In this document: positions 6,188-30,943 of the stretch, piece after piece
Layout of the letters: each line of letters opens with the position of its first letter
Numbering within the stretch: position 1 is the first letter of the stretch
From: a virus
Lineage: Duplodnaviria > Caudoviricetes
DNA: 55,555 bases
Reading direction: 5' to 3' (one strand)
Virus record (IMG/VR): IMGVR_UViG_3300049489_001004
Location: 1 to 55,555 of that record
Program-made: the position numbers and the translations under genes
The notes under the pieces: model-generated
The model's database searches: none
Seen by the model: the letters and a program-made list of their open reading frames with translations, nothing else
Told to the model about the DNA's origin: nothing

Positions 6188-6320
6188 TGTGCTGAAGTGA
6201 AGTTTAGAGTTACTTCATCTTGAAAATGATCAGAGCGGTTCGATTCCGCAGCGGCTTGCAAAAGCTGTTTAGTGTAACGGGAGCACGAATAATGACTTCG
6301 AGCAACTGGTTCTCAGTACA
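6188..6320 (+). ncRNA. Y RNA-like (YrlA-type) unit 1
   Basis: Terminal stem tgtgctga/tcagtaca; GAAGTG, TTACTTC and TGGTTCTC motifs; T arm gcggTTCGATTccgc, GCAA-capped acceptor-like stem, D arm. Confidence 0.85.
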
Positions 6321-6325
6321 TTTTT

Positions 6326-6442
6326 TTATGTTGATGCGTAGATAAGAGTTACTTCACAGGTTCAATTCCCGTATCTAGTAATGTGAATTGCTAGATGTGC
6401 AATGGCGCACACAAAACTTTAATCGCCTGGTTCTCAACATAA
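6326..6442 (+). ncRNA. Y RNA-like unit 2
   Basis: Stem ttatgttga/tcaacataa; same motifs; T-like arm, GTGA-capped stem, D-like hairpin. Confidence 0.8.
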
Positions 6443-6447
6443 TTCAT

Positions 6448-6523
6448 AGCAGCGTAGAGGAGTCTGGTTGTCCTCGACGGGCTCATATCCCGTAGATCGC
6501 AAGTTCAAATCTTGTCGCTGCCA
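6448..6523 (+). tRNA. tRNA-Met(CAT), initiator type
   Basis: Cloverleaf; anticodon arm acggg-ctCATat-cccgt with three G-C pairs; 1:72 mismatch. Confidence 0.9.
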
Positions 6524-6526
6524 CGA

Positions 6527-6662
6527 TATACCGAAGTGTAGTTTAGAGTTACTTCTTACTCTTAATAAGTTAGAGCGGTTCGACTCCGCAGTAGATTGAA
6601 AAATTTGCTTAGTGTAACGGCAGCACAAAAATGTAAACTTTGAACGATTGGTTCTCGGTATA
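6527..6662 (+). ncRNA. Y RNA-like unit 3
   Basis: Stem tataccga/tcggtata; T arm gcggTTCGACTccgc, GAAA-capped stem, D arm. Confidence 0.85.
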
Positions 6663-6671
6663 ATCAATCAA

Positions 6672-6809
6672 TGTGTCGATGTGAAGAATTGAGATACTTC
6701 GAAAACAATGTGTCCAGGTTCGATTCCTGGCTAGGTGTGTAAACATTTAGTAGCTCAACGGCAGAGCAATTGTCCTGCACTACACTTAATTCGATTTGTT
6801 CTCGACACA
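6672..6809 (+). ncRNA. Y RNA-like unit 4 with classic YrlA layout
   Basis: Stem tgtgtcga/tcgacaca; T arm ccaggTTCGATTcctgg, GTAA-capped stem, D arm tagctcaacggcagagc. Confidence 0.88.
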
Positions 6810-6816
6810 ATTTTTA

Positions 6817-6915
6817 AGTATTGATGTGAAGAGTAGGGATACTTCGGAAAAACTAGGCACACGTCTAGAGTGGGTTCAAACCCCACAGTTCCTTATTCAA
6901 AATGTTCTCAATACT
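6817..6915 (+). ncRNA. Y RNA-like unit 5
   Basis: Stem agtattga/tcaatact; inner stem gagtaggga/tccttattc; hairpin followed by T arm gtgggTTCAAACcccac. Confidence 0.8.
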
Positions 6916-6919
6916 ACTT

Positions 6920-6974
6920 TTACTCTCCTAATCTTTTTCCTATTTCGTCGTCGTGTTGGAGATTAGGAGAGTAA
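6920..6974. repeat. 15-bp perfect inverted repeat
   Basis: ttactctcctaatct ... agattaggagagtaa. Confidence 0.85.
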
Positions 6975-6978
6975 TTTC

Positions 6979-7154
6979 GTTTTCGTTAAACGGTGGGCTT
7001 AGAAGCAGCCATCCGATAATGAGTGGAGCAGTCCTGAGGGTTGGCTTTGGCTGGCCCGAAGGGGTAGATTAATATCTACTAAGGTAGAGCTATGAGACAC
7101 ACTACCTCATCTCCTTTTTAGGGGCCTTAGGCGTAATAGCACATTAACGAAAAC
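6979..7154 (+). ncRNA. Structured RNA resembling the 23S rRNA L11-binding (H43/H44) domain
   Basis: 11-bp closing stem gttttcgttaa/ttaacgaaaac; GGCTTAGAAGCAGCCATC at 6996-7013 and GCGTAATAGC at 7131-7140. Confidence 0.8.
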
Positions 7155-7159
7155 AATCC

Positions 7160-7237
7160 TCTTCCGATGTGAAGATTGGGGTTACTTCATTTTTTGGTAA
7201 TGTAACCGTAAACCTCAATCGATTTGTTCTCGGAAGA
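7160..7237 (+). ncRNA. Minimal Y RNA-like unit 6
   Basis: Stems tcttccga/tcggaaga and gattggggtt/aacctcaatc; shared motifs. Confidence 0.8.
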
Positions 7238-7241
7238 ACCA

Positions 7242-7364
7242 TGCAGGTGTGCTACCTCGATCGAAGAGGAGGAGCTACGAAGCAGGAAAACGATGTTTAA
7301 GCGTTGTATACGGCGCTTTTTCGATCAGCCTGTGAAGTGTGAGTTCGATCCTCACGGCCTGCGC
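7242..7364 (+). ncRNA. Atypical enlarged tRNA-like RNA
   Basis: Acceptor gcaggt/gcctgc, T arm gtgagTTCGATCctcac, expanded D and anticodon regions. Confidence 0.65.
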
Positions 7365-7368
7365 GAAA

Positions 7369-7448
7369 GGTACTGATGCGATACACAGAGTTACTTCATT
7401 AATTTTCACTTAATCAAAAAAAACTTTGTGTGCTTGGTTCTCAGTGCT
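7369..7448 (+). ncRNA. Minimal Y RNA-like unit 7
   Basis: Stems ggtactga/tcagtgct and tacacagagtt/aactttgtgtg. Confidence 0.8.
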
Positions 7449-7456
7449 ACTTTTTA

Positions 7457-7531
7457 ACTTGTGATGCGTAGACTAGAGTTACTTCATAATTGAAATTTAT
7501 AAAAGCCTTTAGTCGCTTGGTTCTCACAAGT
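7457..7531 (+). ncRNA. Minimal Y RNA-like unit 8
   Basis: Stems acttgtga/tcacaagt and gactagag/ctttagtc. Confidence 0.8.
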
Positions 7532-7561: not shown

Positions 7562-9097
7562 ATGATGGCGCATTTCGCCCAGAACGCACAGCAGGCAAAG
7601 CCTGTTGGCGTCACTCAGACGACTACTGCAGCAGTCACCCACGAAGGTGGCCTAGGTTATAGTCTTGATGCTAAGACAGAGCTTTACACTCTTTCGGTGT
7701 CTTCATTCCATGGTCAGAACTCTTATTATGAGTCTGGCGAAAGTCGAGAAGATCGATTTGCTAAGCTTGTTCAGCAAGTGACGAAGGAAGATCCTGATTG
7801 GGTACGAGCTTTTATTCCTTGGCTGCGAAATGAAGCCAACATTAGAAGCAATTCTATTGCTGCAGCTTGCGAATATGTTGCAGCTGGTGGTCCTAACGGT
7901 AGAGCTGTTATTGACAGTTGTATCGTTCGAGCCGATGAACCCGCTGAGATTTTTGGCTATTGGGTGTCTCGTTATGGCCGTAAGTTTCCTGCCCCAGTCA
8001 AGAGAGGCCTCGCAGACGCCGCTCAGAGGCTGTATAACGAGCGCAATGCCCTAAAGTGGGACCAGAATGGCTCGAACGTACGTATGGGCGATATTATCGC
8101 TATGACGCACCCTAAGCCTGTTGGGAACTGGCAGGGCGATCTTTTCACTTATCTGATGGATGTTCGCCACCGCCGTGATAATCCTCGTGGGTTGGAATCT
8201 CTTCCTCTGATTACCAATGTTCTCAATTGGCGTCAGGCTGCTCTTAAGGGAGAGATCAACTATGAACTTCCTGAAGGCGTAACTTGGGAAGCATTATCTT
8301 CTCTCACTAAGATGGATAAGGCTGCCTGGGAAGCCGTTATTCCTCAGATGGGATACATGGCTTTAATTCGCAATCTTCGGAATTTCGAAGAAGCGGGTAT
8401 CAGTAAGTCGATGGTTGACTTTGTCAATGCCAAGATTGCTGACCCAGAAGAAGTTGCGAAGTCACGTCAGCTTCCCATGCGCTTTTGGTCTTCTTACGCT
8501 AACAGCGGAAGTCTCAAGTATGCTCAAGCCCTTGAAGAGGCAATGAATCTTTCTCTGAATAGCATTCCTCATTTCAATGGTAGAACTCTTGTAATGGTAG
8601 ATACTTCAGGCTCAATGATGGGTAGCTATTCTAACAAGGGCACCGTTAGTCCTGTTCAGCAGGCAGCGATCTTTGGTTCTGCTGTTGCCGCGGCTTCTGA
8701 CAACAGCACTGTTGCTATTTATGCTTCAAGTGTTGCTGTTGTTCAGCCTTCGACTTCGGTTCTTCGTACAACAGATACCATTATCAAGTCGGTAGGTAGT
8801 GTGGGCCACGGCACCAATACCTGGCCATCGGTATTACAGATGTGGAATGAGCACGGACCATTCGATCGCGTATTAGTGTTTACTGACATGCAGGATCACC
8901 CCTCAGCTGTCAGCCATAAAAACATTCCGAAGAACGTTCCTATTTACGTTTGGGACTTGGCAGGACATAAGACTGCTAATATCGAGCTCGGCTCCGGCCG
9001 GTATCTATTTGGTGGATTAAGCGACCAAAGCTTCAAGAGCCTTAAGCTTGTCGAGGACTATCAGCCTGGAGTTTGGCCTTGGGCTATTTCGGCCTGA
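7562..9097 (+). CDS. rsr: Ro60/TROVE-domain RNA-binding protein with C-terminal vWA domain
   Basis: THEGGLGY, TWE, MGYMALIRNLRNF, SRQLPMRFWS, VDTSGSM (MIDAS), GTNT and FTDMQ motifs. Confidence 0.95.
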   Translation: MMAHFAQNAQQAKPVGVTQTTTAAVTHEGGLGYSLDAKTELYTLSVSSFHGQNSYYESGESREDRFAKLVQQVTKEDPDWVRAFIPWLRNEANIRSNSIAAACEYVAAGGPNGRAVIDSCIVRADEPAEIFGYWVSRYGRKFPAPVKRGLADAAQRLYNERNALKWDQNGSNVRMGDIIAMTHPKPVGNWQGDLFTYLMDVRHRRDNPRGLESLPLITNVLNWRQAALKGEINYELPEGVTWEALSSLTKMDKAAWEAVIPQMGYMALIRNLRNFEEAGISKSMVDFVNAKIADPEEVAKSRQLPMRFWSSYANSGSLKYAQALEEAMNLSLNSIPHFNGRTLVMVDTSGSMMGSYSNKGTVSPVQQAAIFGSAVAAASDNSTVAIYASSVAVVQPSTSVLRTTDTIIKSVGSVGHGTNTWPSVLQMWNEHGPFDRVLVFTDMQDHPSAVSHKNIPKNVPIYVWDLAGHKTANIELGSGRYLFGGLSDQSFKSLKLVEDYQPGVWPWAISA

Positions 9098-12647: not shown

Positions 12648-12720
12648 TCCGGGATAGCTCAGCTGGCAGAGCAATTGACTGTTAATCAATGGGTCGCAGG
12701 TTCGAGCCCTGCTCCCGGAG
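12648..12720 (+). tRNA. tRNA-Asn(GTT)
   Basis: Cloverleaf; attga-ctGTTaa-tcaat. Confidence 0.95.
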
Positions 12721-12721
12721 C

Positions 12722-12766
12722 CGCGGAGTCCTTGTGGTTGCAAACGTAAGGGTAGCTCCGCCACCA
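12722..12766 (+). ncRNA. Minihelix-like RNA ending in ACCA
   Basis: gcggagt/gctccgc stem, inner ccttg/taagg stem, 3-prime ACCA. Confidence 0.5.
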
Positions 12767-14885: not shown

Positions 14886-14961
14886 GCTCAGGGTAGCTGA
14901 AGGTTCAGCACTGCGTCTCTAAAACGTCAGGTTATTACGGGATCGTTACCCGCCCTGGGCT
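14886..14961 (+). tRNA. Amber-anticodon (CTA) tRNA with 8/4 fold
   Basis: 8-bp acceptor gctcaggg/ccctgggc, loop ctCTAaa (anticodon 14919-14921), 4-bp T stem. Confidence 0.75.
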
Positions 14962-14963
14962 CT

Positions 14964-16804: not shown

Positions 16805-17971
16805 ATGGAAGTATTAAACGATAATTTATATGCGTGGGTAGAAGAATTTGATACCAACACAATTCTTCAGGCTGAAAAATTATCGCGGCTTCCCATTCTA
16901 GCTGGACCAGTTGCGCTCATGCCAGATGCCCACGTTGGTATGGGCGCAACAGTAGGTTCAGTTATAGCTACAAAAAACGCCATCATACCTGCTGCCGTAG
17001 GAGTAGACTTAGGTTGCGGAATGATAGCTATTCGAACGAGCCTTATGTCTGAAGATTTACCTGAAGACTTGGATAAGTTTATGCCTGAAGTAGAGCGTAG
17101 TATCCCCGCAGGCGTAGGCAGAGGGCATTCAGAAGCGACTAAGGGTGCATCCGAATGGTTTGATAAACATGGTATACCCGGAAGCTTGGACACAAAGCAG
17201 AAAAAAACTGCTATGACGCAGATGGGTTCTCTTGGGTCCGGAAACCATTTTTTCGAAGTCTGTTTGGATGAGTCAGACAAGGTCTGGTTAGTTTTACATT
17301 CAGGATCACGTGGAGTTGGAAATACTCTGGCTCAGAATCATATTCGTATAGCTAAATCAGACTTTAAATCTTGGGTCAGCGGAGAATATGATTTAGAAGA
17401 TAAAGATCTAGCGTGGTTCATTGAGGAGACTCCTCAATTCGACGCCTATATCTCTGACATGCTTTGGTCACAGGATTATGCTTTAGCCAATAGAAATTTA
17501 ATGATGCAATCCGTCCTTAAAAATTTCTTTAATTTTGTAGGGACCGGTAAAGTCGAACAAGAAATAAATTGTCATCACAATTTCTGTCAAAGAGAGACCC
17601 ACGGCGACCATTCCGTTTGGGTAACTCGTAAAGGTGCTATCCAAGCCAAAGATACTGACTGGGGAGTTATCCCTGGTTCAATGGGAGCCGAAACCTATAT
17701 CGTTAAAGGCACAGGTAATCCCTTGTCCTGGAACTCATGCTCTCATGGAGCTGGAAGAACTATGAGTCGCAGTAAAGCCAAGACTCTTTTTACCAAAGAA
17801 GATCTTGTTGAATTGATGGGCGACAGAGTGTGGAATAAAGATTCCGCGGCGGCACTTATTGACGAGATTCCTTTGTCTTATAAAGATATCAATAAGGTCA
17901 TGGAAGCACAGAAAGATTTGGTTGAAGTTCAATACAAACTTCATCAGATATTAAATTACAAGGGACAATAA
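16805..17971 (+). CDS. rtcB: RtcB RNA ligase
   Basis: MPDAHVG, GVDLGCG, GSLGSGNHFFE, HSGSRG, HHN, IPGSMG and SHGAGR motifs. Confidence 0.97.
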   Translation: MEVLNDNLYAWVEEFDTNTILQAEKLSRLPILAGPVALMPDAHVGMGATVGSVIATKNAIIPAAVGVDLGCGMIAIRTSLMSEDLPEDLDKFMPEVERSIPAGVGRGHSEATKGASEWFDKHGIPGSLDTKQKKTAMTQMGSLGSGNHFFEVCLDESDKVWLVLHSGSRGVGNTLAQNHIRIAKSDFKSWVSGEYDLEDKDLAWFIEETPQFDAYISDMLWSQDYALANRNLMMQSVLKNFFNFVGTGKVEQEINCHHNFCQRETHGDHSVWVTRKGAIQAKDTDWGVIPGSMGAETYIVKGTGNPLSWNSCSHGAGRTMSRSKAKTLFTKEDLVELMGDRVWNKDSAAALIDEIPLSYKDINKVMEAQKDLVEVQYKLHQILNYKGQ

Positions 17972-20782: not shown

Positions 20783-21322
20783 ATGAAACTACCAGTACCT
20801 TATAAATGTTTTAGAATAAAGGGCCCTGGTGCCTGGTGGATTGTCGATGCAGATATAGCAGAACCAATAAAGGAATTAATTAAACTTGATGCTAACGATT
20901 GTTTCTCGTGCTTAGGAAAAGGTATTAGCACCTATGATAACAGTAAATGCGTTAAGTGTTATGGCACCGGGGAATTTATCGTATCGATAGATGTAGACAC
21001 ATGTCCATGTGGCGGCAGCGATATAAAGTGCAAGCTGTGTTCGGGATATGGACCAAGCAAAACATATCAAGCGTCTTTTGTTAAAGTTTTACCAATAACA
21101 ACAAAACCTCTTTCTAAAACTTTAACAACAGATCATATTGTAAATGATCATGGTTTATTTTTTATTAAGCAGTGGTTGCCCGAATCTAATAGTTATTACG
21201 TCCAGCATATTCTCATAGCTCCATACGCCGCATCTTGGGGGCAATATGGCATTAAGTTAAAAATTTACGGTTTCCAACAATCCCAAAATAATTTAATTAA
21301 CAAGGATGAAATAATATGGTAG
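20783..21322 (+). CDS. Protein with DnaJ-type zinc-finger repeats
   Basis: CFSCLGKG, CVKCYGTG and CKLCSGYG. Confidence 0.7.
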   Translation: MKLPVPYKCFRIKGPGAWWIVDADIAEPIKELIKLDANDCFSCLGKGISTYDNSKCVKCYGTGEFIVSIDVDTCPCGGSDIKCKLCSGYGPSKTYQASFVKVLPITTKPLSKTLTTDHIVNDHGLFFIKQWLPESNSYYVQHILIAPYAASWGQYGIKLKIYGFQQSQNNLINKDEIIW

Positions 21323-21939
21323 CAGAAAATTACACTCACTTAACATTAGTGATTGACCGGTCTGGCTCAATGTATAACTTAGCGTCAGATGTGAGCGGTA
21401 GCATTAATACCCTTATTAGGGAGCAGGCTGCCATTGCAGACAGTGAGATTACAATCTCGTTGGTACAATTTGACAGCGAATATGAAGCAGTCGAAGAGTT
21501 CGTGCCAGCAAAACACGTAAACAATTATAACTTAGTGCCAAGAGGCAGTACGGCCATGAACGACTCTGTGTTTCGCGCAATCAACGAAACCAAAGAACGT
21601 ATCGATGCAATGCCAGAAGCAAATAGGCCAAGCAATGTGATTGTGACTATTGCCACAGATGGGTACGAGAATGCTTCTAGCGAAGTAACTAATGCTCAGC
21701 TTAAGAAGCTGGTAGAAGAACGAGAAGCTGACGGATGGTCATTTGTTTTCATTGCCTCGAACATCGACGCTAAAACAGCTGGGGGCTCTTTGGGTATTAC
21801 AAATACCGCGTCAAACAGTCATACTGGCGCAGGATATGCTCAGACGTACAGCACTTTGAGCGCAACAATATCTACGACTAGGACCACCGGCACTTCGTTC
21901 GATAGTGCCTGGAAAGAAAATGATACAAATAGCCAATGA
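21316..21939 (+). CDS. vWA-domain protein
   Basis: IDRSGSM MIDAS, PRGSTA and TDGYENAS motifs. Confidence 0.9.
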   Translation: MVAENYTHLTLVIDRSGSMYNLASDVSGSINTLIREQAAIADSEITISLVQFDSEYEAVEEFVPAKHVNNYNLVPRGSTAMNDSVFRAINETKERIDAMPEANRPSNVIVTIATDGYENASSEVTNAQLKKLVEEREADGWSFVFIASNIDAKTAGGSLGITNTASNSHTGAGYAQTYSTLSATISTTRTTGTSFDSAWKENDTNSQ

Positions 21940-23859: not shown

Positions 23860-24201
23860 ATGCTCCGCATGGCAAAACCAGATCCAAAAAACAACATTCC
23901 TGTTCACTCATTTGTCTATCCCAATAAGGAATATTGGGATAAGGTACAAAAAATGGCCAATAGAATGGCCTTCTCTCAAGAAAAGTATGGAGATTTGGCT
24001 GATGCGTATCCGCATTCTGTAGATGCTCTCGCCAACTTAAAGCAGAGGATTGAATTTTACGAACGGACGGGTAACATCGAATGGCTTCTGGACGCAGCAA
24101 ATTTTGCTGTGATCGAGGCGATTCATCCCGCACACACCGATGCTCACTTTCGCCCAACTGATTCCGATGAATCACCAGGGCTTCGGACCTTTCAAGAATA
24201 A
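23860..24201 (+). CDS. Hypothetical protein
   Basis: NRMAFS..KYG...YERTGNIEWLLDAANFA motif; lone + strand gene. Confidence 0.7.
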   Translation: MLRMAKPDPKNNIPVHSFVYPNKEYWDKVQKMANRMAFSQEKYGDLADAYPHSVDALANLKQRIEFYERTGNIEWLLDAANFAVIEAIHPAHTDAHFRPTDSDESPGLRTFQE

Positions 24202-25031
24202 GGGTCATAGCTGATTAGCTTATTCTTTTTCTTTTCGGCCTGTTCCACATTGAACCTACCTGCAGCGCAGGTGCCGTCTTTTTGATAGCTACACATCCGA
24301 CACTTCCAAGCCAAACCCTTGGGTAGTGTAGTATAATTATTATTCTCTCTGATTTTTTCTATTGCTTCGGCAAGTCGATTCTCTACATCAGAGAATTCTT
24401 CGTCAGAGAAGCTATGCTTCTTTAGCTTGTTGCTCTTTAGATAATGCAACATAGCAGTAATCTTTTTATCCGAGTGAAGATACTTCATATATAAGGCGTA
24501 GATACCTAACTGTAAGTTGTAAGGCACTTCCTTATCGGGGACTTCCCAAGCTCCTGTTTTATAATCTGTAATGATTACCTCTGTATCTGTAATCAAAACG
24601 CGATCGATAAAACCACGGATTAATACTCCAGCAAATACGAACTGGAACGCAAACTCTGGCTCAGTAATCCTTACTGCCGATGGACCTTCCCTCATTACAA
24701 ATTCTTGTAACATCGGGATGCCGCTTTCGAACAGTTCGTCAGAGACATACTGTTGATCCGGGTCGTGCTCTTCTCGGGCTGCTCTATAGTTATCTAGAAG
24801 TTCCGCTAGGGATAACTTTTCTCCATCAACTAAGGTTACCTCTAGAGCCGTATGGATCATATTACCTAAGAGCGCTTTGTCCCCAGGCTCTTGTGGTATT
24901 TTAAGAATATAGTTATAAAAATACTGCGCCTGACACCAGTCAAACGCATTGATTCTGGAATAACTAAAATCCTGTAACGCTAGTTTTTCAAATTCTGATA
25001 TCTCATCTAATAAACGAATGTTAGGCTTCAA
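24192..25031 (-). CDS. RecB/Cas4-like PD-(D/E)XK exonuclease
   Basis: FSYSRI..F.WC, GFIDRV, DYKTG, QLGIYA and C-terminal CRMC..C motifs. Confidence 0.88.
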   Translation of the reverse strand: MKPNIRLLDEISEFEKLALQDFSYSRINAFDWCQAQYFYNYILKIPQEPGDKALLGNMIHTALEVTLVDGEKLSLAELLDNYRAAREEHDPDQQYVSDELFESGIPMLQEFVMREGPSAVRITEPEFAFQFVFAGVLIRGFIDRVLITDTEVIITDYKTGAWEVPDKEVPYNLQLGIYALYMKYLHSDKKITAMLHYLKSNKLKKHSFSDEEFSDVENRLAEAIEKIRENNNYTTLPKGLAWKCRMCSYQKDGTCAAGRFNVEQAEKKKNKLISYDPYS

Positions 25032-29400: not shown

Positions 29401-29762
29401 GCTGAAGAAAGCTTCATCAGGTTTACATAACCTACATTATTATAGGCAAGAATGGTCTGATGATATGGGCCACGTTGGCCCCATTCGTTAATTGAGGGAC
29501 CAGACATTTCTTCTTGGTCGGTATCAAACCTAGACTTTCTTGCCCTGTATGCCTCAATCCCGGGCATAAAGGGAATCCCAAGCTTTTTAGCCGACTTGTA
29601 GGTCGCCATCAAGGTGTGAAGGTTTCCGTGGTCAGTAGAGGTAATGCAGGGTTGACCGAGTTCTAATGCTCTCTGAGCATATTCCTCTGGCTTAGACATT
29701 CCGTCTAAGAAGGAGCCGTATGTATGATTGTGTGCGTTAAAAAATTGGTTTTTATTTTTCAT
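26385..29762 (-). CDS. dnaE: DNA polymerase III alpha subunit
   Basis: PHP domain (HNHT, TDHG), GPGRGS, PDIDVD, HAGG, LLKIDMLGL and LYQEQ motifs. Confidence 0.96.
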   Translation of the reverse strand: MKNKNQFFNAHNHTYGSFLDGMSKPEEYAQRALELGQPCITSTDHGNLHTLMATYKSAKKLGIPFMPGIEAYRARKSRFDTDQEEMSGPSINEWGQRGPYHQTILAYNNVGYVNLMKLSSAAFLEGFARKPRVDLELIERYSEGLVVLSGCLSGALQQALLRGDYEAALAEAGTMQGIVGKDNYFIEIMDHGIPEEKAVHEGLVKIAKAIDAPIVPTCDSHYTHRHDHDDHDILLCISTASQLTTPNRFKFSGDEFYLKSYEEMVDLFPKEWVHNTLLIPEKLDLNIDLDSHHYPVFEIPEESPIKVIPDYFIQAIMDGAEQRFGLNWKTERRDVAERLNTEVKIIQEMGYDSYFLIVADIIKWCLENGILIGPGRGSSASSLVSYCLGITHINPLEYGLLFERFLTPGRVPDIDVDVDSRYRDKVLDYIRNKYGHEKTAQIITISQLKAKSCINDVARVMGFPFNFSQDIVKTMPPAQFGVTKTLDECLEAEEFSRIYNEDPDVKKVIDVGKKLENLWRSDGIHAGGIIIADDIITNYCPIKQKGPGEPVVTQWDMRTVEEVGLLKIDMLGLTTLDIIQDTINRVKKVHGIEIGPPYELVENPDPLVFDSLSRGNTAQVFQMGSDGLTNLAKAMGINSVKDIMAALALYRPGPMGSGFHHSYAKRKRGKQKPIPLHPLLGDVLKDTYGILLYQEQVMAVAKEIAGFDPTAANKFLKSIGKKDREAMAATKGSFTEGCVANGGISQREAEELFAAIEPHADYSFSAAHASVYAYLSYITAYLKYYYPAEFSAACLTSEMFGDGKKFRPVLNDVREKIGVEVTPPSVNYSGFDFTTSEGRVLFSISGLKGIGETKSSSFVNFREESGKSYKTITDFFINANTKVIDKTFVEAMVYSGAFDELISDELVEDIDVEISEQLVILNKENEYLGLAVTDDPFAIYYNSLTFDKVTSPVSDVTAFSDKIRFCGLVKDPEVKVSKAGKKYAKFRVEDGSSIIQALILGKQVEFIESKLKTTLEELLQPGAFISFYCRLQERDEEESVIYITSIVDVHTPKTIDDLLTSISLKVENQNELVIINKILLENPGNKKVYILNKHPDAKLYLKSLSPHRIDEAGEKLLDKYIQRKK

Positions 29763-30943
29763 TTTTCAGTGGCTGCTTTTAAAGCCACAGTAAGATATAA
29801 GTTTTCCCATAAAGTTGAATCCTTACCCACTGCATTAAGATTGCCATTGTTACGGGTGGCGGCATCCCAAGCTTTATTTAATAACTCATAGGCAACCTCT
29901 TCCCAGGAAGTAAGTACGCTGCTAAAATCTTTTTTCCATCTAGCAGAACCGTTTTCGTCTAGCTCAATATGTACTCGCATTGCAGCAAGCAGCGGCCAGA
30001 CAATTGGGTCTTGAAGCACATGAGAGTTTGTAAACTTGCTTCCAAAAAATATATTTCTATTCTTAGAAACCCTTAACTTAGCCAGATAAGAAGATCCGTA
30101 CTTACCGTGACCATTTTTCTTTTCATTCCATAAATCTTGTGCTGATAAAGCAATATAATCATGTAACTGAGCTACTTCAATGGCTATGGGGTATAGTGCC
30201 TCAAAATTCTTGGGTTCAGAAAGGAAACGTTCGACAACTTTACCCTTGCTAGAATAGGCTAATTTAGGATGGGAGCTGCTGTCAGGGTAGTCGATAATAT
30301 TTACACATTCTAGATATCTAATTATGTCACCAACGTCGAGAGGATTATTCTCGTTGTCTTGCCATGAGATTTGGTCTGAGTAATCAGCAAAAACGTTTTT
30401 AAGTTGATCGAAATCTCCATCAAGATTAGCCAATGAAGATTTTGAAACCTGAATAGAACTATTTAATCCACCCGTTATTTGTACTACTAACTCGTTTGTC
30501 AGCCCGGAAATACATTCAACTTTGACATATTCAGTTGGAATAGGAATATTTGCTTCTTCACACTCTTCGATGACTGAGCGAATTATATCGTAAGTATGGC
30601 CACCGTTAATAATTCCACATGATACTGGATCAGTAGTCTCAAAAGTAATCTCTGCTTGATGAGTAGTATTGTCATACTTAAGATCAGATATCAACCATGT
30701 CATGCCTTGATTTCTTAAATGGAATGCTCCACGATTATTATCTTCGTTAGCATCTAAGAGACCTTCCCTAATCTCTTTGTAAAGTTTCTTGTTTATGTTA
30801 GATACTCTAGGGTTAACATCCTTGGGTAAGCCCGCAGGGACATCTTTAACCCGTAAATAAAAAGTTGACCTCTTCACCGAGTCCCCATACGAGGGGTCTT
30901 TCATGGTGCGGAGATCAACGATGGGTAGCGATACTGTCTTCAT
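29759..30943 (-). CDS. AIPR family protein
   Basis: NPR, FHLRNQG, IINGGHT and LNSSIQV motifs. Confidence 0.85.
   Translation of the reverse strand: MKTVSLPIVDLRTMKDPSYGDSVKRSTFYLRVKDVPAGLPKDVNPRVSNINKKLYKEIREGLLDANEDNNRGAFHLRNQGMTWLISDLKYDNTTHQAEITFETTDPVSCGIINGGHTYDIIRSVIEECEEANIPIPTEYVKVECISGLTNELVVQITGGLNSSIQVSKSSLANLDGDFDQLKNVFADYSDQISWQDNENNPLDVGDIIRYLECVNIIDYPDSSSHPKLAYSSKGKVVERFLSEPKNFEALYPIAIEVAQLHDYIALSAQDLWNEKKNGHGKYGSSYLAKLRVSKNRNIFFGSKFTNSHVLQDPIVWPLLAAMRVHIELDENGSARWKKDFSSVLTSWEEVAYELLNKAWDAATRNNGNLNAVGKDSTLWENLYLTVALKAATEK

What the first reader, a model, noticed from the sequence alone, without database searches (positions are those of the whole stretch)
6215..7500. Five units display a different tRNA anticodon stem-loop at the same position: candidate decoys for anticodon nucleases
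Seen: directly after TACTTC, five units have a 4-5 bp hairpin with a 7-nt loop that has U33 and a purine at 37. They are tcat-ctTGAaa-atga (6215-6229, Ser), ctta-ctCTTaa-taag (6555-6569, Lys), catt-ttTTGgt-aatg (7188-7202, Gln), attaa-ttTTCac-ttaat (7398-7414, Glu) and ataa-ttGAAat-ttat (7486-7500, Phe). In units 6-8 this hairpin is almost the whole cargo. In units 1 and 3 it is followed by a 5-nt linker and the T arm, as in a real tRNA. Known: anti-phage and toxin nucleases (PrrC, RloC, PARIS AriB, VapC and MazF types) cut specific anticodon loops, and RtcB reseals such breaks. Inference: the Ro60-bound RNAs act as a panel of decoys or baits for tRNA-targeting defences, or recruit modification or repair enzymes. 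I do not know of this being described for Y RNAs.
Basis: partly seen in the sequence, partly recalled or inferred. Interest (0 to 1): 0.95.

Follow-up and report, generated by a model that had tools for sequence, protein, structure and literature searches.

The report
Anticodon-arm mimics on phage Y RNAs
A phage encodes eight small partner RNAs for the RNA-surveillance protein Ro60, and five of them carry a hairpin built like a tRNA anticodon arm; the design recurs widely, and its use as bait for enzymes that read or cut anticodons is plausible but untested.

Summary
All five hairpins are at the stated coordinates, directly after TACTTC, inside eight Y-RNA-like units upstream of a Ro60/TROVE gene. 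Each has a 7-nt loop with Y32, U33 and R37. Four of the five loops are letter-for-letter the anticodon loops of genuine tRNAs (Ser-UGA, Lys-CUU, Gln-UUG, Glu-UUC) found in related phage loci.

The design is not chance. Among 208 distinct Ro60-linked units from 160 other loci plus the window, 46 carry such a hairpin, against 6.1 in shuffles. In actinobacterial genomes the figure is 22 of 86, against 2.7. Stems covary, the loop frame (32, 33, 37, 38) is conserved, and the triplet is free.

There are caveats. The window's stems are AU-only and unstable on their own. Three of the eight units lack the hairpin, and so do most units elsewhere.

Chen et al. 2014 described this stem-loop as a "V" (variable-arm) element. 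Hughes et al. 2020 floated YrlA as a competitive inhibitor of an anticodon nuclease. The decoy function itself is untested, and the feature is not phage-specific.

This scan has reported the same design before on other DNA (e1-5780405, e1-5688170, e1-6017210 and others).

The parts
6189..6319 (+). Y unit 1: Ro60 handle, closed anticodon-like arm, 5-nt linker, T arm, loop-closed acceptor-like stem and D arm
   Evidence: CM R1 hit 36.4 bits, E 7.8e-6; anatomy read; homologs aligned
6215..6229 (+). U1 hairpin TCAT-CTTGAAA-ATGA (loop as in tRNA-Ser UGA)
   Evidence: the loop equals 6 of 8 genuine tRNA-Ser(UGA) loops in the loci; isolated dG +0.7; not in the unit MFE; register supported by homologs L158:6956 and L001:4363
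6230..6249 (+). U1 5-nt linker TCAGA plus T arm GCGG-TTCGATT-CCGC
   Evidence: T hairpin in the MFE
6328..6440 (+). Y unit 2: the T arm follows TACTTC directly, with no anticodon-like hairpin
   Evidence: R1 hit 49.4 bits
6448..6524 (+). genuine tRNA-Met (CAT) inside the array
   Evidence: Rfam tRNA 52.4 bits; ARAGORN
6528..6661 (+). Y unit 3: paralog of unit 1 with a different anticodon-like arm
   Evidence: R1 hit 47.4 bits; alignment A5
6555..6569 (+). U3 hairpin CTTA-CTCTTAA-TAAG (loop as in tRNA-Lys CUU)
   Evidence: the loop equals 9 of 13 genuine tRNA-Lys(CUU) loops; same loop in L071:6761 and L152:4840; MFE shows a hairpin shifted by one base; dG +1.6
6570..6589 (+). U3 5-nt linker TTAGA plus T arm
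6673..6808 (+). Y unit 4: standard YrlA topology (long-range anticodon-stem equivalent, no loop)
   Evidence: Rfam YrlA 27.2 bits, E 0.0032, below the gathering score of 69; R1 hit 48 bits
6818..6914 (+). Y unit 5: 6-bp hairpin with a 4-nt loop plus T arm, not anticodon-like
   Evidence: R1 hit 40.7 bits
7161..7236 (+). Y unit 6 (mini unit)
   Evidence: R1 76.6 bits
7188..7202 (+). U6 hairpin CATT-TTTTGGT-AATG (loop as in one phage tRNA-Gln UUG; also fits the recurrent UUGG loop class)
   Evidence: MFE yes, centroid no; 1 of 9 tRNA-Gln(UUG) loops; UUGG class
7370..7447 (+). Y unit 7 (mini unit)
   Evidence: R1 67.2 bits
7398..7414 (+). U7 hairpin ATTAA-TTTTCAC-TTAAT (loop as in phage tRNA-Glu UUC)
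   Evidence: MFE and centroid; 3 of 10 tRNA-Glu(UUC) loops
7458..7530 (+). Y unit 8 (mini unit)
   Evidence: R1 73.4 bits
7486..7500 (+). U8 hairpin ATAA-TTGAAAT-TTAT (GAA triplet; no identical genuine loop found)
   Evidence: MFE and centroid; 0 identical genuine loops, nearest TTGAAAC and TTGAAAA of tRNA-Phe
7562..9097 (+). Ro60/TROVE protein gene (511 aa)
   Evidence: PF05731, E 8.3e-18; 4123 homologs at E<=0.001 among 8000 scored
16805..17971 (+). RtcB RNA ligase gene, same strand, context only
   Evidence: PF01139, E 7e-111

Best explanation
The five hairpins are the stem-loop that Chen et al. 2014 called 'V' in YrlA-class Y RNAs. Here, and in about a quarter of Ro60-linked units elsewhere, it is built as a tRNA anticodon arm.

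Anatomy (shown):
- The 5' strand starts in or just after the conserved ACUUC that ends the Ro60 handle.
- The stem is 4-5 bp.
- The loop has 7 nt, with the frame Y32-U33...R37-(A/C/U)38 conserved and the central triplet free.
- Units 1 and 3 are whole tRNA look-alikes: anticodon arm, 5-nt variable loop, T arm, loop-closed acceptor, D arm. The Ro60 handle joins between the D arm and the anticodon arm.
- Units 6-8 are the handle plus a bare anticodon arm.
- Recurrence, covariation and loop identity with genuine tRNAs are also shown.

Mechanism (inferred): bound to Ro60 by the handle, these RNAs present an anticodon loop to a protein that recognises anticodon loops by their general shape. They would act as a competitor or a tether. 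Anticodon nucleases are the leading candidate partner, because RtcB and a tRNA set lie on the same strand. Modification enzymes remain possible. The element most likely descends from real tRNA anticodon arms.
For: (1) Context. The hairpins lie in eight units with a common handle, upstream of Ro60 on the same strand. The handle helices covary: 89.3% of cells paired against 62.0% in shuffles, 0 of 500 shuffles as high, and 39.7-50.0% with slid partners.

(2) Model R1 finds such units next to Ro60 in the other loci. There are 109 + 140 hits at E<=0.01, giving 208 distinct sequences.

(3) Loop size. For the lowest-energy hairpin after ACUUC, 39 of 199 units left after 9 T-loop-like hairpins were dropped have a 7-nt loop, against 13.2 in shuffles. 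Other loop sizes are near expectation.

(4) Stem of at least 4 bp, 7-nt loop, U33 and R37: 46 of 208 against 6.1 (sd 2.5, maximum 12 in 200 shuffles). At 5 bp or more: 27 against 1.9. With Y32 as well: 39 against 3.4.

(5) In a set not chosen by loop sequence (33 loops): U33 23/33 (P 7e-9), A37 21/33 (4e-6), A38 19/33 (9e-5). Positions 34 and 36 are near background (P 0.09 and 0.18); U35 is modestly enriched (P 0.007).

(6) 66 distinct arms. Pairs 31-39 to 28-42 are paired in 64-65 of 66, with 5-6 standard pair types each. At least 4 bp is imposed by construction in the rule-based part.

(7) ARAGORN on its own reads 28 Y units as tRNAs with canonical anticodon loops.

(8) 51 of 70 locus-loop pairs equal the loop of a tRNA call elsewhere in the set. 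G37 goes with G36 in 12 of 15 against 4 of 55 otherwise (Fisher 6e-8), as in tRNAs.

(9) Four of the five window loops equal the cognate genuine tRNA loops.

(10) The paralogs U1 and U3 keep their T and D arms but differ in stem and loop of this arm, with compensation. The same TTCGA/TCGAG stem carries four different loops in L035, L007, L151 and L034.

(11) RtcB lies 7.7 kb downstream. Hughes 2020 links rsr-yrlBA-rtcBA to anticodon-loop cleavage and floats YrlA as a nuclease competitor (passages).
Against: - The window's stems are AU-only, and each isolated hairpin has dG of +0.7 to +2.0.
- The unit MFE does not give the U1 hairpin, and shifts U3's by one base.
- Three of the 8 units here lack the hairpin, and 162 of 208 units elsewhere fail the 4-bp/7-nt/U33/R37 test.
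- Many short units carry other loops, including a separate UUGG class: 30 of 122 against 13.8. U6 may belong to that class.
- The stems do not resemble real anticodon stems, which are 5 bp and GC-rich.
- The feature also occurs in actinobacterial genome records, in 22 of 86 units, so it is not a phage-only counter-defence.
- In three Lentzea species the loop differs by single substitutions. This fits neutral drift of the triplet as well as it fits diversification.
- There is no relation between the displayed triplets and the tRNA genes of the same locus (3/16 against 5.1).
- No read-level evidence of expression covers the five hairpins.
- No binding partner is known.
- Salmonella YrlA, which has no such loop, is reported not to be cut by the anticodon nuclease.
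Confidence: 0.55

Rival explanations
1. Relic or purely structural hairpin. The Y RNAs descend from tRNA transcripts, and the anticodon arm is kept only as a compact U-turn hairpin that caps or stabilises the RNA. No partner reads it as an anticodon loop.
For: - The dimeric-tRNA origin model is in print (Wang et al. 2018 preprint, passages).
- L148:4818 keeps the heptamer CTGTTAA and a 3' part that, by eye, is close to the window's own tRNA-Asn.
- The triplet is unconstrained, and it drifts by single substitutions among Lentzea species.
- Most units lack the hairpin.
- There is no link to local tRNA content.
Against: - Positions 32, 33, 37 and 38 stay conserved while the stems have turned over with compensation. 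That indicates selection on the loop frame, not decay.
- G36-G37 coupling and exact identity with cognate loops, including position 38, go beyond what a generic U-turn needs.
- The mini units carry nothing else as cargo.
Confidence: 0.28
2. Variable-arm equivalent, as assigned by Chen et al. 2014. The Ro-proximal helix takes the place of the anticodon stem, and this hairpin projects like the long variable arm of class II tRNAs, serving the tRNA-like fold.
For: In chain order it lies between the Ro-proximal helix and the T arm. Chen 2014 section 6 makes this assignment. In solved Salmonella YrlA the stem leading to the Ro module is the anticodon-stem equivalent (passages).
Against: - The loop is 7 nt with anticodon-loop letters.
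- A separate 4-5-nt variable-loop-like linker follows it before the T stem.
- ARAGORN reads it as the anticodon arm.
- It also occurs alone in units with no tRNA-like body (U6-U8 and many others).
Confidence: 0.1
3. Chance hairpins in AT-rich spacer sequence.
For: The stems are short and AU-only with positive dG. Such hairpins occur at 0.023 per base in the window.
Against: P is about 7e-4 for 5 of 8 at one position, times 6.6e-6 for the loop pattern. The recurrence in other loci is far above shuffles.
Confidence: 0.02
4. Base-pairing use of the triplet: the displayed 'anticodon' pairs with a codon-like site in an mRNA, a T-box-like element or the ribosomal decoding site.
For: The triplets are diverse (32 different among 70) and sit in a U-turn loop that presents three bases for pairing.
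Against: No target was sought or found. Triplets differ between close relatives, with no sign of a co-varying partner.
Confidence: 0.05

Closest known systems
YrlA-class bacterial and phage Y RNAs (Rfam RF02553; Chen et al. 2014, PMC4201824), in particular their 'V' stem-loop
   Same: They are encoded just upstream of Ro60 on the same strand. They have a handle formed by the 5' and 3' ends, then a T arm, a loop-closed acceptor-like stem and a D arm. Many carry a stem-loop upstream of the T arm, and the conserved YUAY (here TTAC of GTTACTTC) precedes it.
   Different: In the parts I read, the stem-loop is called less conserved and likened to a variable arm. Its 7-nt anticodon-type loop is not mentioned. 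Here there are eight units in one array, three of which have only this hairpin as cargo. Only unit 4 touches the Rfam model, at 27.2 bits against a gathering score of 69.
Salmonella Typhimurium YrlA crystal structure (Wang et al. 2018, bioRxiv 10.1101/312249)
   Same: An L-shaped tRNA mimic whose anticodon-stem equivalent leads to the Ro60 module (passages).
   Different: That RNA 'lacks the anticodon loop'. Units 1 and 3 here have a closed arm with a 7-nt loop, and the Ro60 handle joins between the D arm and that arm.
Deinococcus radiodurans Yrn1 'anticodon arm' (Chen et al. 2014, section 6)
   Same: A Ro60-bound Y RNA drawn with a 5-bp arm in the anticodon position.
   Different: Its loop has 6 nt, the arm lies between the T and D arms, and it belongs to a different lineage of Y RNA.
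Thermus phage phiLo Ro60 with Yrl1 and Yrl2 (PMC12135203)
   Same: A phage Ro60 with Y-like RNAs encoded just upstream; it is proposed to hijack host PNPase against defence (passages).
   Different: There are two RNAs and no tRNA-like or anticodon feature is reported (0 occurrences of 'anticodon' and of 'tRNA-like').
Genuine tRNA anticodon arms
   Same: A 7-nt loop with Y32, U33 and R37, G37 coupled to G36, and loop heptamers identical to cognate tRNAs. In long units a 4-5-nt variable loop and a T arm follow.
   Different: The stems are 4-5 bp, AU-only in this window, and unlike real stems. The 5' strand is partly the conserved ACUUC of the handle. The arm is not continuous with a D arm, and there is no free CCA end.

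Membership tests
YrlA-class Y RNA (Rfam RF02553; Chen 2014) | Encoded within about 2 kb of a Ro60 gene on the same strand | tested here: met
   The units span 6189-7530; Ro60 is at 7562-9097 on the + strand
YrlA-class Y RNA (Rfam RF02553; Chen 2014) | 5' motif GNCGAAN0-1G (as given in Chen 2014) | tested here: inconclusive
   The units read YGA(U/A)G(Y)G. Only U3 has CGAAG and U1 has UGAAG. This is a variant of the motif, conserved across the 160 loci
YrlA-class Y RNA (Rfam RF02553; Chen 2014) | T arm, loop-closed acceptor-like stem and D arm | tested here: met
   Met for U1-U4. U5 has a T arm only, and U6-U8 have none of the three
YrlA-class Y RNA (Rfam RF02553; Chen 2014) | Reaches the Rfam gathering score | tested here: not met
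   No YrlA hit at gathering. U4 alone scores 27.2 bits against 69
YrlA-class Y RNA (Rfam RF02553; Chen 2014) | Bound by Ro60 | not testable with these tools
   Inferred from adjacency and from the covarying handle
tRNA anticodon arm (as a structural mimic) | 7-nt loop with U at loop position 2 and a purine at position 6 | tested here: met
   5 of 5 window hairpins; 46 of 208 units elsewhere against 6.1 in shuffles
tRNA anticodon arm (as a structural mimic) | 5-bp stem | tested here: not met
   U7 has 5 bp and the other four have 4 bp, all AU-rich with dG above 0. Elsewhere 27 of 208 units have 5 bp or more
tRNA anticodon arm (as a structural mimic) | Loop letters as in cognate tRNAs | tested here: met
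   4 of 5 window loops are identical to genuine tRNA loops of the same triplet in the loci; 51 of 70 overall
tRNA anticodon arm (as a structural mimic) | Followed by a variable loop and T arm, preceded by a D arm | tested here: inconclusive
   The linker and T arm follow in U1 and U3 only. The D arm is present, but the Ro60 handle separates it from the arm
Class II tRNA variable arm (Chen 2014 assignment of 'V') | Hairpin between the anticodon stem and the T stem, with no separate variable loop | tested here: inconclusive
   The position in chain order fits. However, a further 4-5-nt linker precedes the T stem and the loop is anticodon-like. The usual loop size of variable arms is recalled, not tested
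Decoy or competitive inhibitor of anticodon nucleases | Bound or cut by such a nuclease; protects tRNA or phage growth | not testable with these tools
The idea is floated for YrlA in Hughes 2020
Decoy or competitive inhibitor of anticodon nucleases | If a phage counter-defence: restricted to phages | tested here: not met
   22 of 86 units in actinobacterial genome records carry it, some on complete chromosomes. Prophage origin was not excluded

The most novel reading that the evidence does not exclude
Ro60 with its Y RNAs is an RNA-based sponge for enzymes that attack or read anticodon loops. Each unit offers a nuclease-accessible anticodon loop on a protein-bound scaffold. The free central triplet lets arrays such as this eight-unit one cover several tRNA specificities. 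Cut decoys or cut tRNAs would be resealed by the co-encoded RtcB. Phages would have borrowed from bacteria a system first used against the cell's own or competitors' tRNA toxins.
Probability: 0.18. Interest if true: 0.9.

Novelty: new variant of a known kind. Interest (0 to 1): 0.62.

Why it matters
What the tRNA-like part of bacterial Y RNAs does has been open since 2014. The literature read here treats this stem-loop as a poorly conserved variable arm and states that YrlA lacks an anticodon loop.

This analysis shows that in many Ro60 loci the element is an anticodon arm in all but name. The loop frame is conserved, the triplet is free, and some units consist of nothing else. That narrows the search for the missing partner to proteins that read anticodon loops.

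It also gives direct experiments: loop swaps, tetraloop replacement, pull-downs, and nuclease competition. In addition, it links Ro60, RtcB and tRNA cleavage in phages as well as in bacteria.

Tried and rejected
1. Closest relatives. The single-protein scan of viral contigs found nothing. No relative closer than about 53% Ro60 identity was therefore examined.

2. DNA search of the array against phage records found only tRNA-Met-like matches.

3. Energy-based hairpin calling dropped 40 of 208 units as 'none' (dG >= 0), including all five window hairpins. It also dropped 9 T-loop-like loops. I therefore added a rule-based count.

4. Expression. One metatranscriptome run holds contigs at 6258-6429 and 6715-6892 and an unrelated piece at 6992-7025. 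None covers the five hairpins, contigs cannot show ends, and DNA carry-over is not excluded. This is no evidence either way.

5. RtcB linkage. RtcB-like genes lie in the +-5 kb flanks of only 2 of 160 other loci. This is uninformative, because the window's own RtcB lies outside such a flank.

6. Triplet against local tRNA genes: 3 of 16 against 5.1 expected, not significant.

7. The 'genuine tRNA' reference set was separated from Y-derived ARAGORN calls only by a motif filter, so a few Y-derived calls may remain in it. Calls with ambiguous anticodons were dropped, as were 5 genuine tRNAs that matched the Y filter.

8. Shuffle controls ignore shared ancestry among units. I did not build a tree-aware test.

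9. Papers.
- Sim et al. 2020 (PMC10870794) is not held.
- Sim and Wolin 2018 was not found among the listed results.
They may show these loops.
- 'Not in print' rests on searches and on the passages or sections read.

10. No structure prediction or complex job was sent, because these tools do not take RNA partners.
Full report
**What is there**

The window is a 55,555-base contig that makes up the whole held genome. It looks like a phage.
- A 511-aa Ro60/TROVE gene lies at 7562-9097 (PF05731, E 8.3e-18).
- Seven tRNA genes are called.
- RtcB lies at 16805-17971 (PF01139, E 7e-111).

Between 6189 and 7530, on the Ro60 strand, are eight units. Each is closed by the same handle: 5' nnnnGA(U/A)G(Y)G...G(A/U)UACUUC, then cargo, then ...(G/U)GUUCUCnnnn 3'. 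A tRNA-Met (6448-6524) and two other structured stretches sit between units.

Only unit 4 touches Rfam's YrlA model, weakly: 27.2 bits, E 0.0032, against a gathering score of 69. Cargo differs by unit:
- Units 1-4 carry a T arm, a loop-closed acceptor-like stem and a D arm, as in YrlA.
- Unit 5 carries a hairpin and a T arm.
- Units 6-8 carry only a small hairpin.

**The observation**

All five hairpins stand at the coordinates given, directly after TACTTC, with 4-5-bp stems and 7-nt loops:
- CUUGAAA
- CUCUUAA
- UUUUGGU
- UUUUCAC
- UUGAAAU

Each has a pyrimidine at loop position 1, U at position 2 and a purine at position 6. In units 1 and 3, five bases and a T arm follow.

Within the window, hairpins with a stem of at least 4 bp and a 7-nt loop occur at 0.023 per base, and 9.2% of them show Y-U-NNN-R. 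Five of eight at one position has P of about 7e-4, and the loop pattern adds 6.6e-6. These figures are rough and post hoc.

The stems are weak. Isolated hairpins have dG of +0.7 to +2.0 kcal/mol. Whole-unit MFE folds give the following:
- U7 and U8: hairpin as drawn, in both MFE and centroid.
- U6: hairpin as drawn, in the MFE only.
- U3: a hairpin shifted by one base.
- U1: a different hairpin.

**Related loci**

The nearest phage Ro60 in GenBank phages is about 39% identical.

An alignment of 20 Ro60 proteins brought 80 metagenome loci and 80 viral-contig loci. A simple pattern search already found the same handle, TACTTC included, in arrays of up to seven units.

I built a covariance model of the handle from 12 mini units. 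Its two helices covary strongly: 89.3% of cells paired against 62.0% in shuffles, 0 of 500 shuffles as high, and 39.7-50.0% when partners are slid. The model finds units next to Ro60, almost all just upstream on the same strand:
- 125 + 159 hits at E<=1
- 109 + 140 hits at E<=0.01
- 208 distinct sequences in all

**Is the hairpin anticodon-like beyond chance?**

| Test | Observed | Shuffled |
|---|---|---|
| Lowest-energy hairpin from ACUUC to +12, 7-nt loop, not a T loop | 39 of 199 units | 13.2 (20 dinucleotide shuffles) |
| Stem at least 4 bp, 7-nt loop, U33, R37 | 46 of 208 | 6.1 (sd 2.5, maximum 12, 200 shuffles) |
| Same, stem at least 5 bp | 27 of 208 | 1.9 (maximum 7) |
| Stem at least 4 bp, with Y32 as well | 39 of 208 | 3.4 (maximum 9) |

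In the first test, other loop sizes are near expectation.

In a set not selected on loop letters (33 distinct 7-nt loops), the frame is conserved and the triplet is close to background:
- U33: 23/33 (P 7e-9)
- A37: 21/33 (P 4e-6)
- A38: 19/33 (P 9e-5)
- C32: 14/33 (P 0.05)
- G34 and U36: P 0.09 and 0.18
- U35: P 0.007

Further points:
- Sixty-six distinct arms show pairs 31-39 to 28-42 formed in 64-65 of 66, with five to six standard pair types each. The loop starts 1-3 bases after ACUUC in 56 of 66, so the conserved UUC is usually the start of the stem.
- ARAGORN, run blind on all loci, reads 28 Y units as tRNAs. It takes the handle's 5' strand for the acceptor and D arm, and this hairpin for the anticodon arm.
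- Of 70 locus-loop pairs, 51 equal the anticodon loop of another tRNA call in the set.
- G37 accompanies G36 in 12 of 15 and occurs in 4 of 55 otherwise (Fisher 6e-8), the same tendency as in the tRNA calls.
- For the window: CTTGAAA equals 6 of 8 tRNA-Ser(UGA) loops, CTCTTAA 9 of 13 tRNA-Lys(CUU), TTTTCAC 3 of 10 tRNA-Glu(UUC) and TTTTGGT 1 of 9 tRNA-Gln(UUG). TTGAAAT equals none.
- The stems do not match those tRNAs, so the hairpins are not fresh copies of whole arms.

**Anatomy and evolution**

Units 1 and 3 belong to a subfamily with a GUGUAA-type D arm that is also seen in six other loci. In it the chain runs: handle 5' strand, UAC, closed anticodon-like arm, 4-5-nt linker, T arm, closed acceptor, UA, D arm, linker, handle 3' strand. 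This is a tRNA opened between positions 26 and 27.

Other units keep the published YrlA wiring, with a long-range anticodon stem and no loop. Examples are window unit 4 and L094:4202.

At least one unit (L148:4818) keeps the heptamer CTGTTAA single-stranded before the 39-43 strand. By eye it resembles the window's own tRNA-Asn from the loop to the T arm. I did not align these formally.

The paralogs U1 and U3 differ little in the T and D arms. They differ in both stem and loop of the anticodon-like arm, with compensation. One stem, TTCGA/TCGAG, carries four different loops in four loci. In three Lentzea species the loop reads CTTTCAC, CTTCCAC and CTTCCAA. So the frame is held and the triplet moves, at least partly by point mutation.

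**Not phage-specific**

Eighty Ro60 loci from bacterial genome records were examined. Nearly all are Actinomycetota, and some are complete chromosomes. They gave 86 units.
- 22 carry the hairpin, against 2.7 in shuffles (maximum 7).
- At 5 bp or more, 9 carry it, against 0.9.

I did not test whether these loci are prophages.

**What is in print**

- Chen et al. 2014 (section 6 and the 'Functional implications' section read). [quoted passage not shown] It notes an 'anticodon arm' with a 6-nt loop only for D. radiodurans Yrn1.
- Wang et al. 2018 (passages). The paper states that Salmonella YrlA lacks the anticodon loop, and cites the dimeric-tRNA origin model.
- The phiLo Ro60 paper. It has no occurrence of 'anticodon'.
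- Hughes et al. 2020 (passage). The paper ties the rsr-yrlBA-rtcBA operon to anticodon-loop cleavage. It suggests that the YrlA tRNA-like domain, which is not a substrate, may competitively inhibit the nuclease.
- Searches found no description of anticodon-type loops on Y RNAs. Supplements and two reviews were not available to me.

This scan's own earlier follow-ups reported the same design on other DNA. I reached the variable-arm reference before reading them.

**Reading**

I take the hairpins to be anticodon-arm mimics carried on Ro60 handles. They are most likely of tRNA descent and kept under selection on the loop frame. Their job would be to present an anticodon loop to a protein that recognises such loops generically, as competitor or tether (confidence 0.55).

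The specific anticodon-nuclease decoy idea is the most attractive version, given RtcB and the tRNA set on the same strand. It remains untested, and I put it near 0.2.

Rivals:
- a relic or purely structural U-turn hairpin (0.28)
- a variable-arm equivalent (0.10)
- codon or ribosome pairing (0.05)
- chance (0.02)

Against my reading stand the following:
- the weak AU stems here
- the majority of units without the hairpin
- a separate UUGG loop class that may claim unit 6
- the lack of any link to local tRNA genes
- the absence of expression data for the hairpins

Noticed in passing
short units of L001-L160; window 7188-7202: A second recurrent loop class in mini units has UUGG or UGGN soon after ACUUC. 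It is seen in 30 of 122 short units against 13.8 in shuffles (maximum 23). UGGN is complementary to NCCA tRNA 3' ends; that link is my inference and is untested. Window unit 6 (UUUUGGU) may belong here rather than being a Gln mimic.
   Followed up: partly
L100:4820, L047:2708, L096:4776 and 25 others: ARAGORN Y units tRNAs. It reads the Ro60 handle's 5' strand as the acceptor plus D arm. This is a source of false tRNA annotations next to Ro60 genes, and it fits descent of the handle from a tRNA 5' part.
   Followed up: partly
L148:4818-4949 versus window 12648-12722: A standard-topology YrlA unit keeps the heptamer CTGTTAA unpaired. From that heptamer through the T arm it looks, by eye, nearly the same as the window's tRNA-Asn, as if the Ro60 handle were inserted between positions 31 and 32 of a tRNA-Asn.
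   Followed up: no
window 6915-7160: A long perfect hairpin (about 6920-6975) is followed by a strongly structured stretch (MFE -82.7, z -3.56, 0 of 200 shuffles as good). Pieces of other contigs in both runs match only 6992-7025 and run on unlike the window on both sides. This fits a conserved rRNA-like segment (compare first-reader note e1-6326708).
   Followed up: partly
window 7240-7372: A tRNA-shaped RNA has an acceptor-like closing stem and a T arm but a large interior (MFE -43.3, z -1.6). Neither ARAGORN nor Rfam calls it.
   Followed up: partly
window 6774-6783: The one metatranscriptome contig over unit 4 differs from the window by five C-to-T changes within 10 bases, at depth 3.2. 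It could be a strain variant, an error or a chemical change; this is not resolved.
   Followed up: no
window 29759-30943 (- strand), 24192-25031 (- strand), 21316-21939: The contig also encodes an AIPR-family protein (PF10592, 1.8e-19), a PD-(D/E)XK/Cas4-like nuclease (PF12705, 7e-31) and a second vWA-domain protein (PF00092, 2.3e-5).
   Followed up: no
window 14886-14962: ARAGORN calls a tRNA with the anticodon CTA (amber-reading, labelled Pyl). Rfam's tRNA model did not list it at the gathering score.
   Followed up: no
L190, L205, L206 (Lentzea species): Orthologous mini units on the same TTCC/GGAA stem carry CTTTCAC, CTTCCAC and CTTCCAA. These are single-base steps that change the 'anticodon' and position 38.
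   Followed up: no
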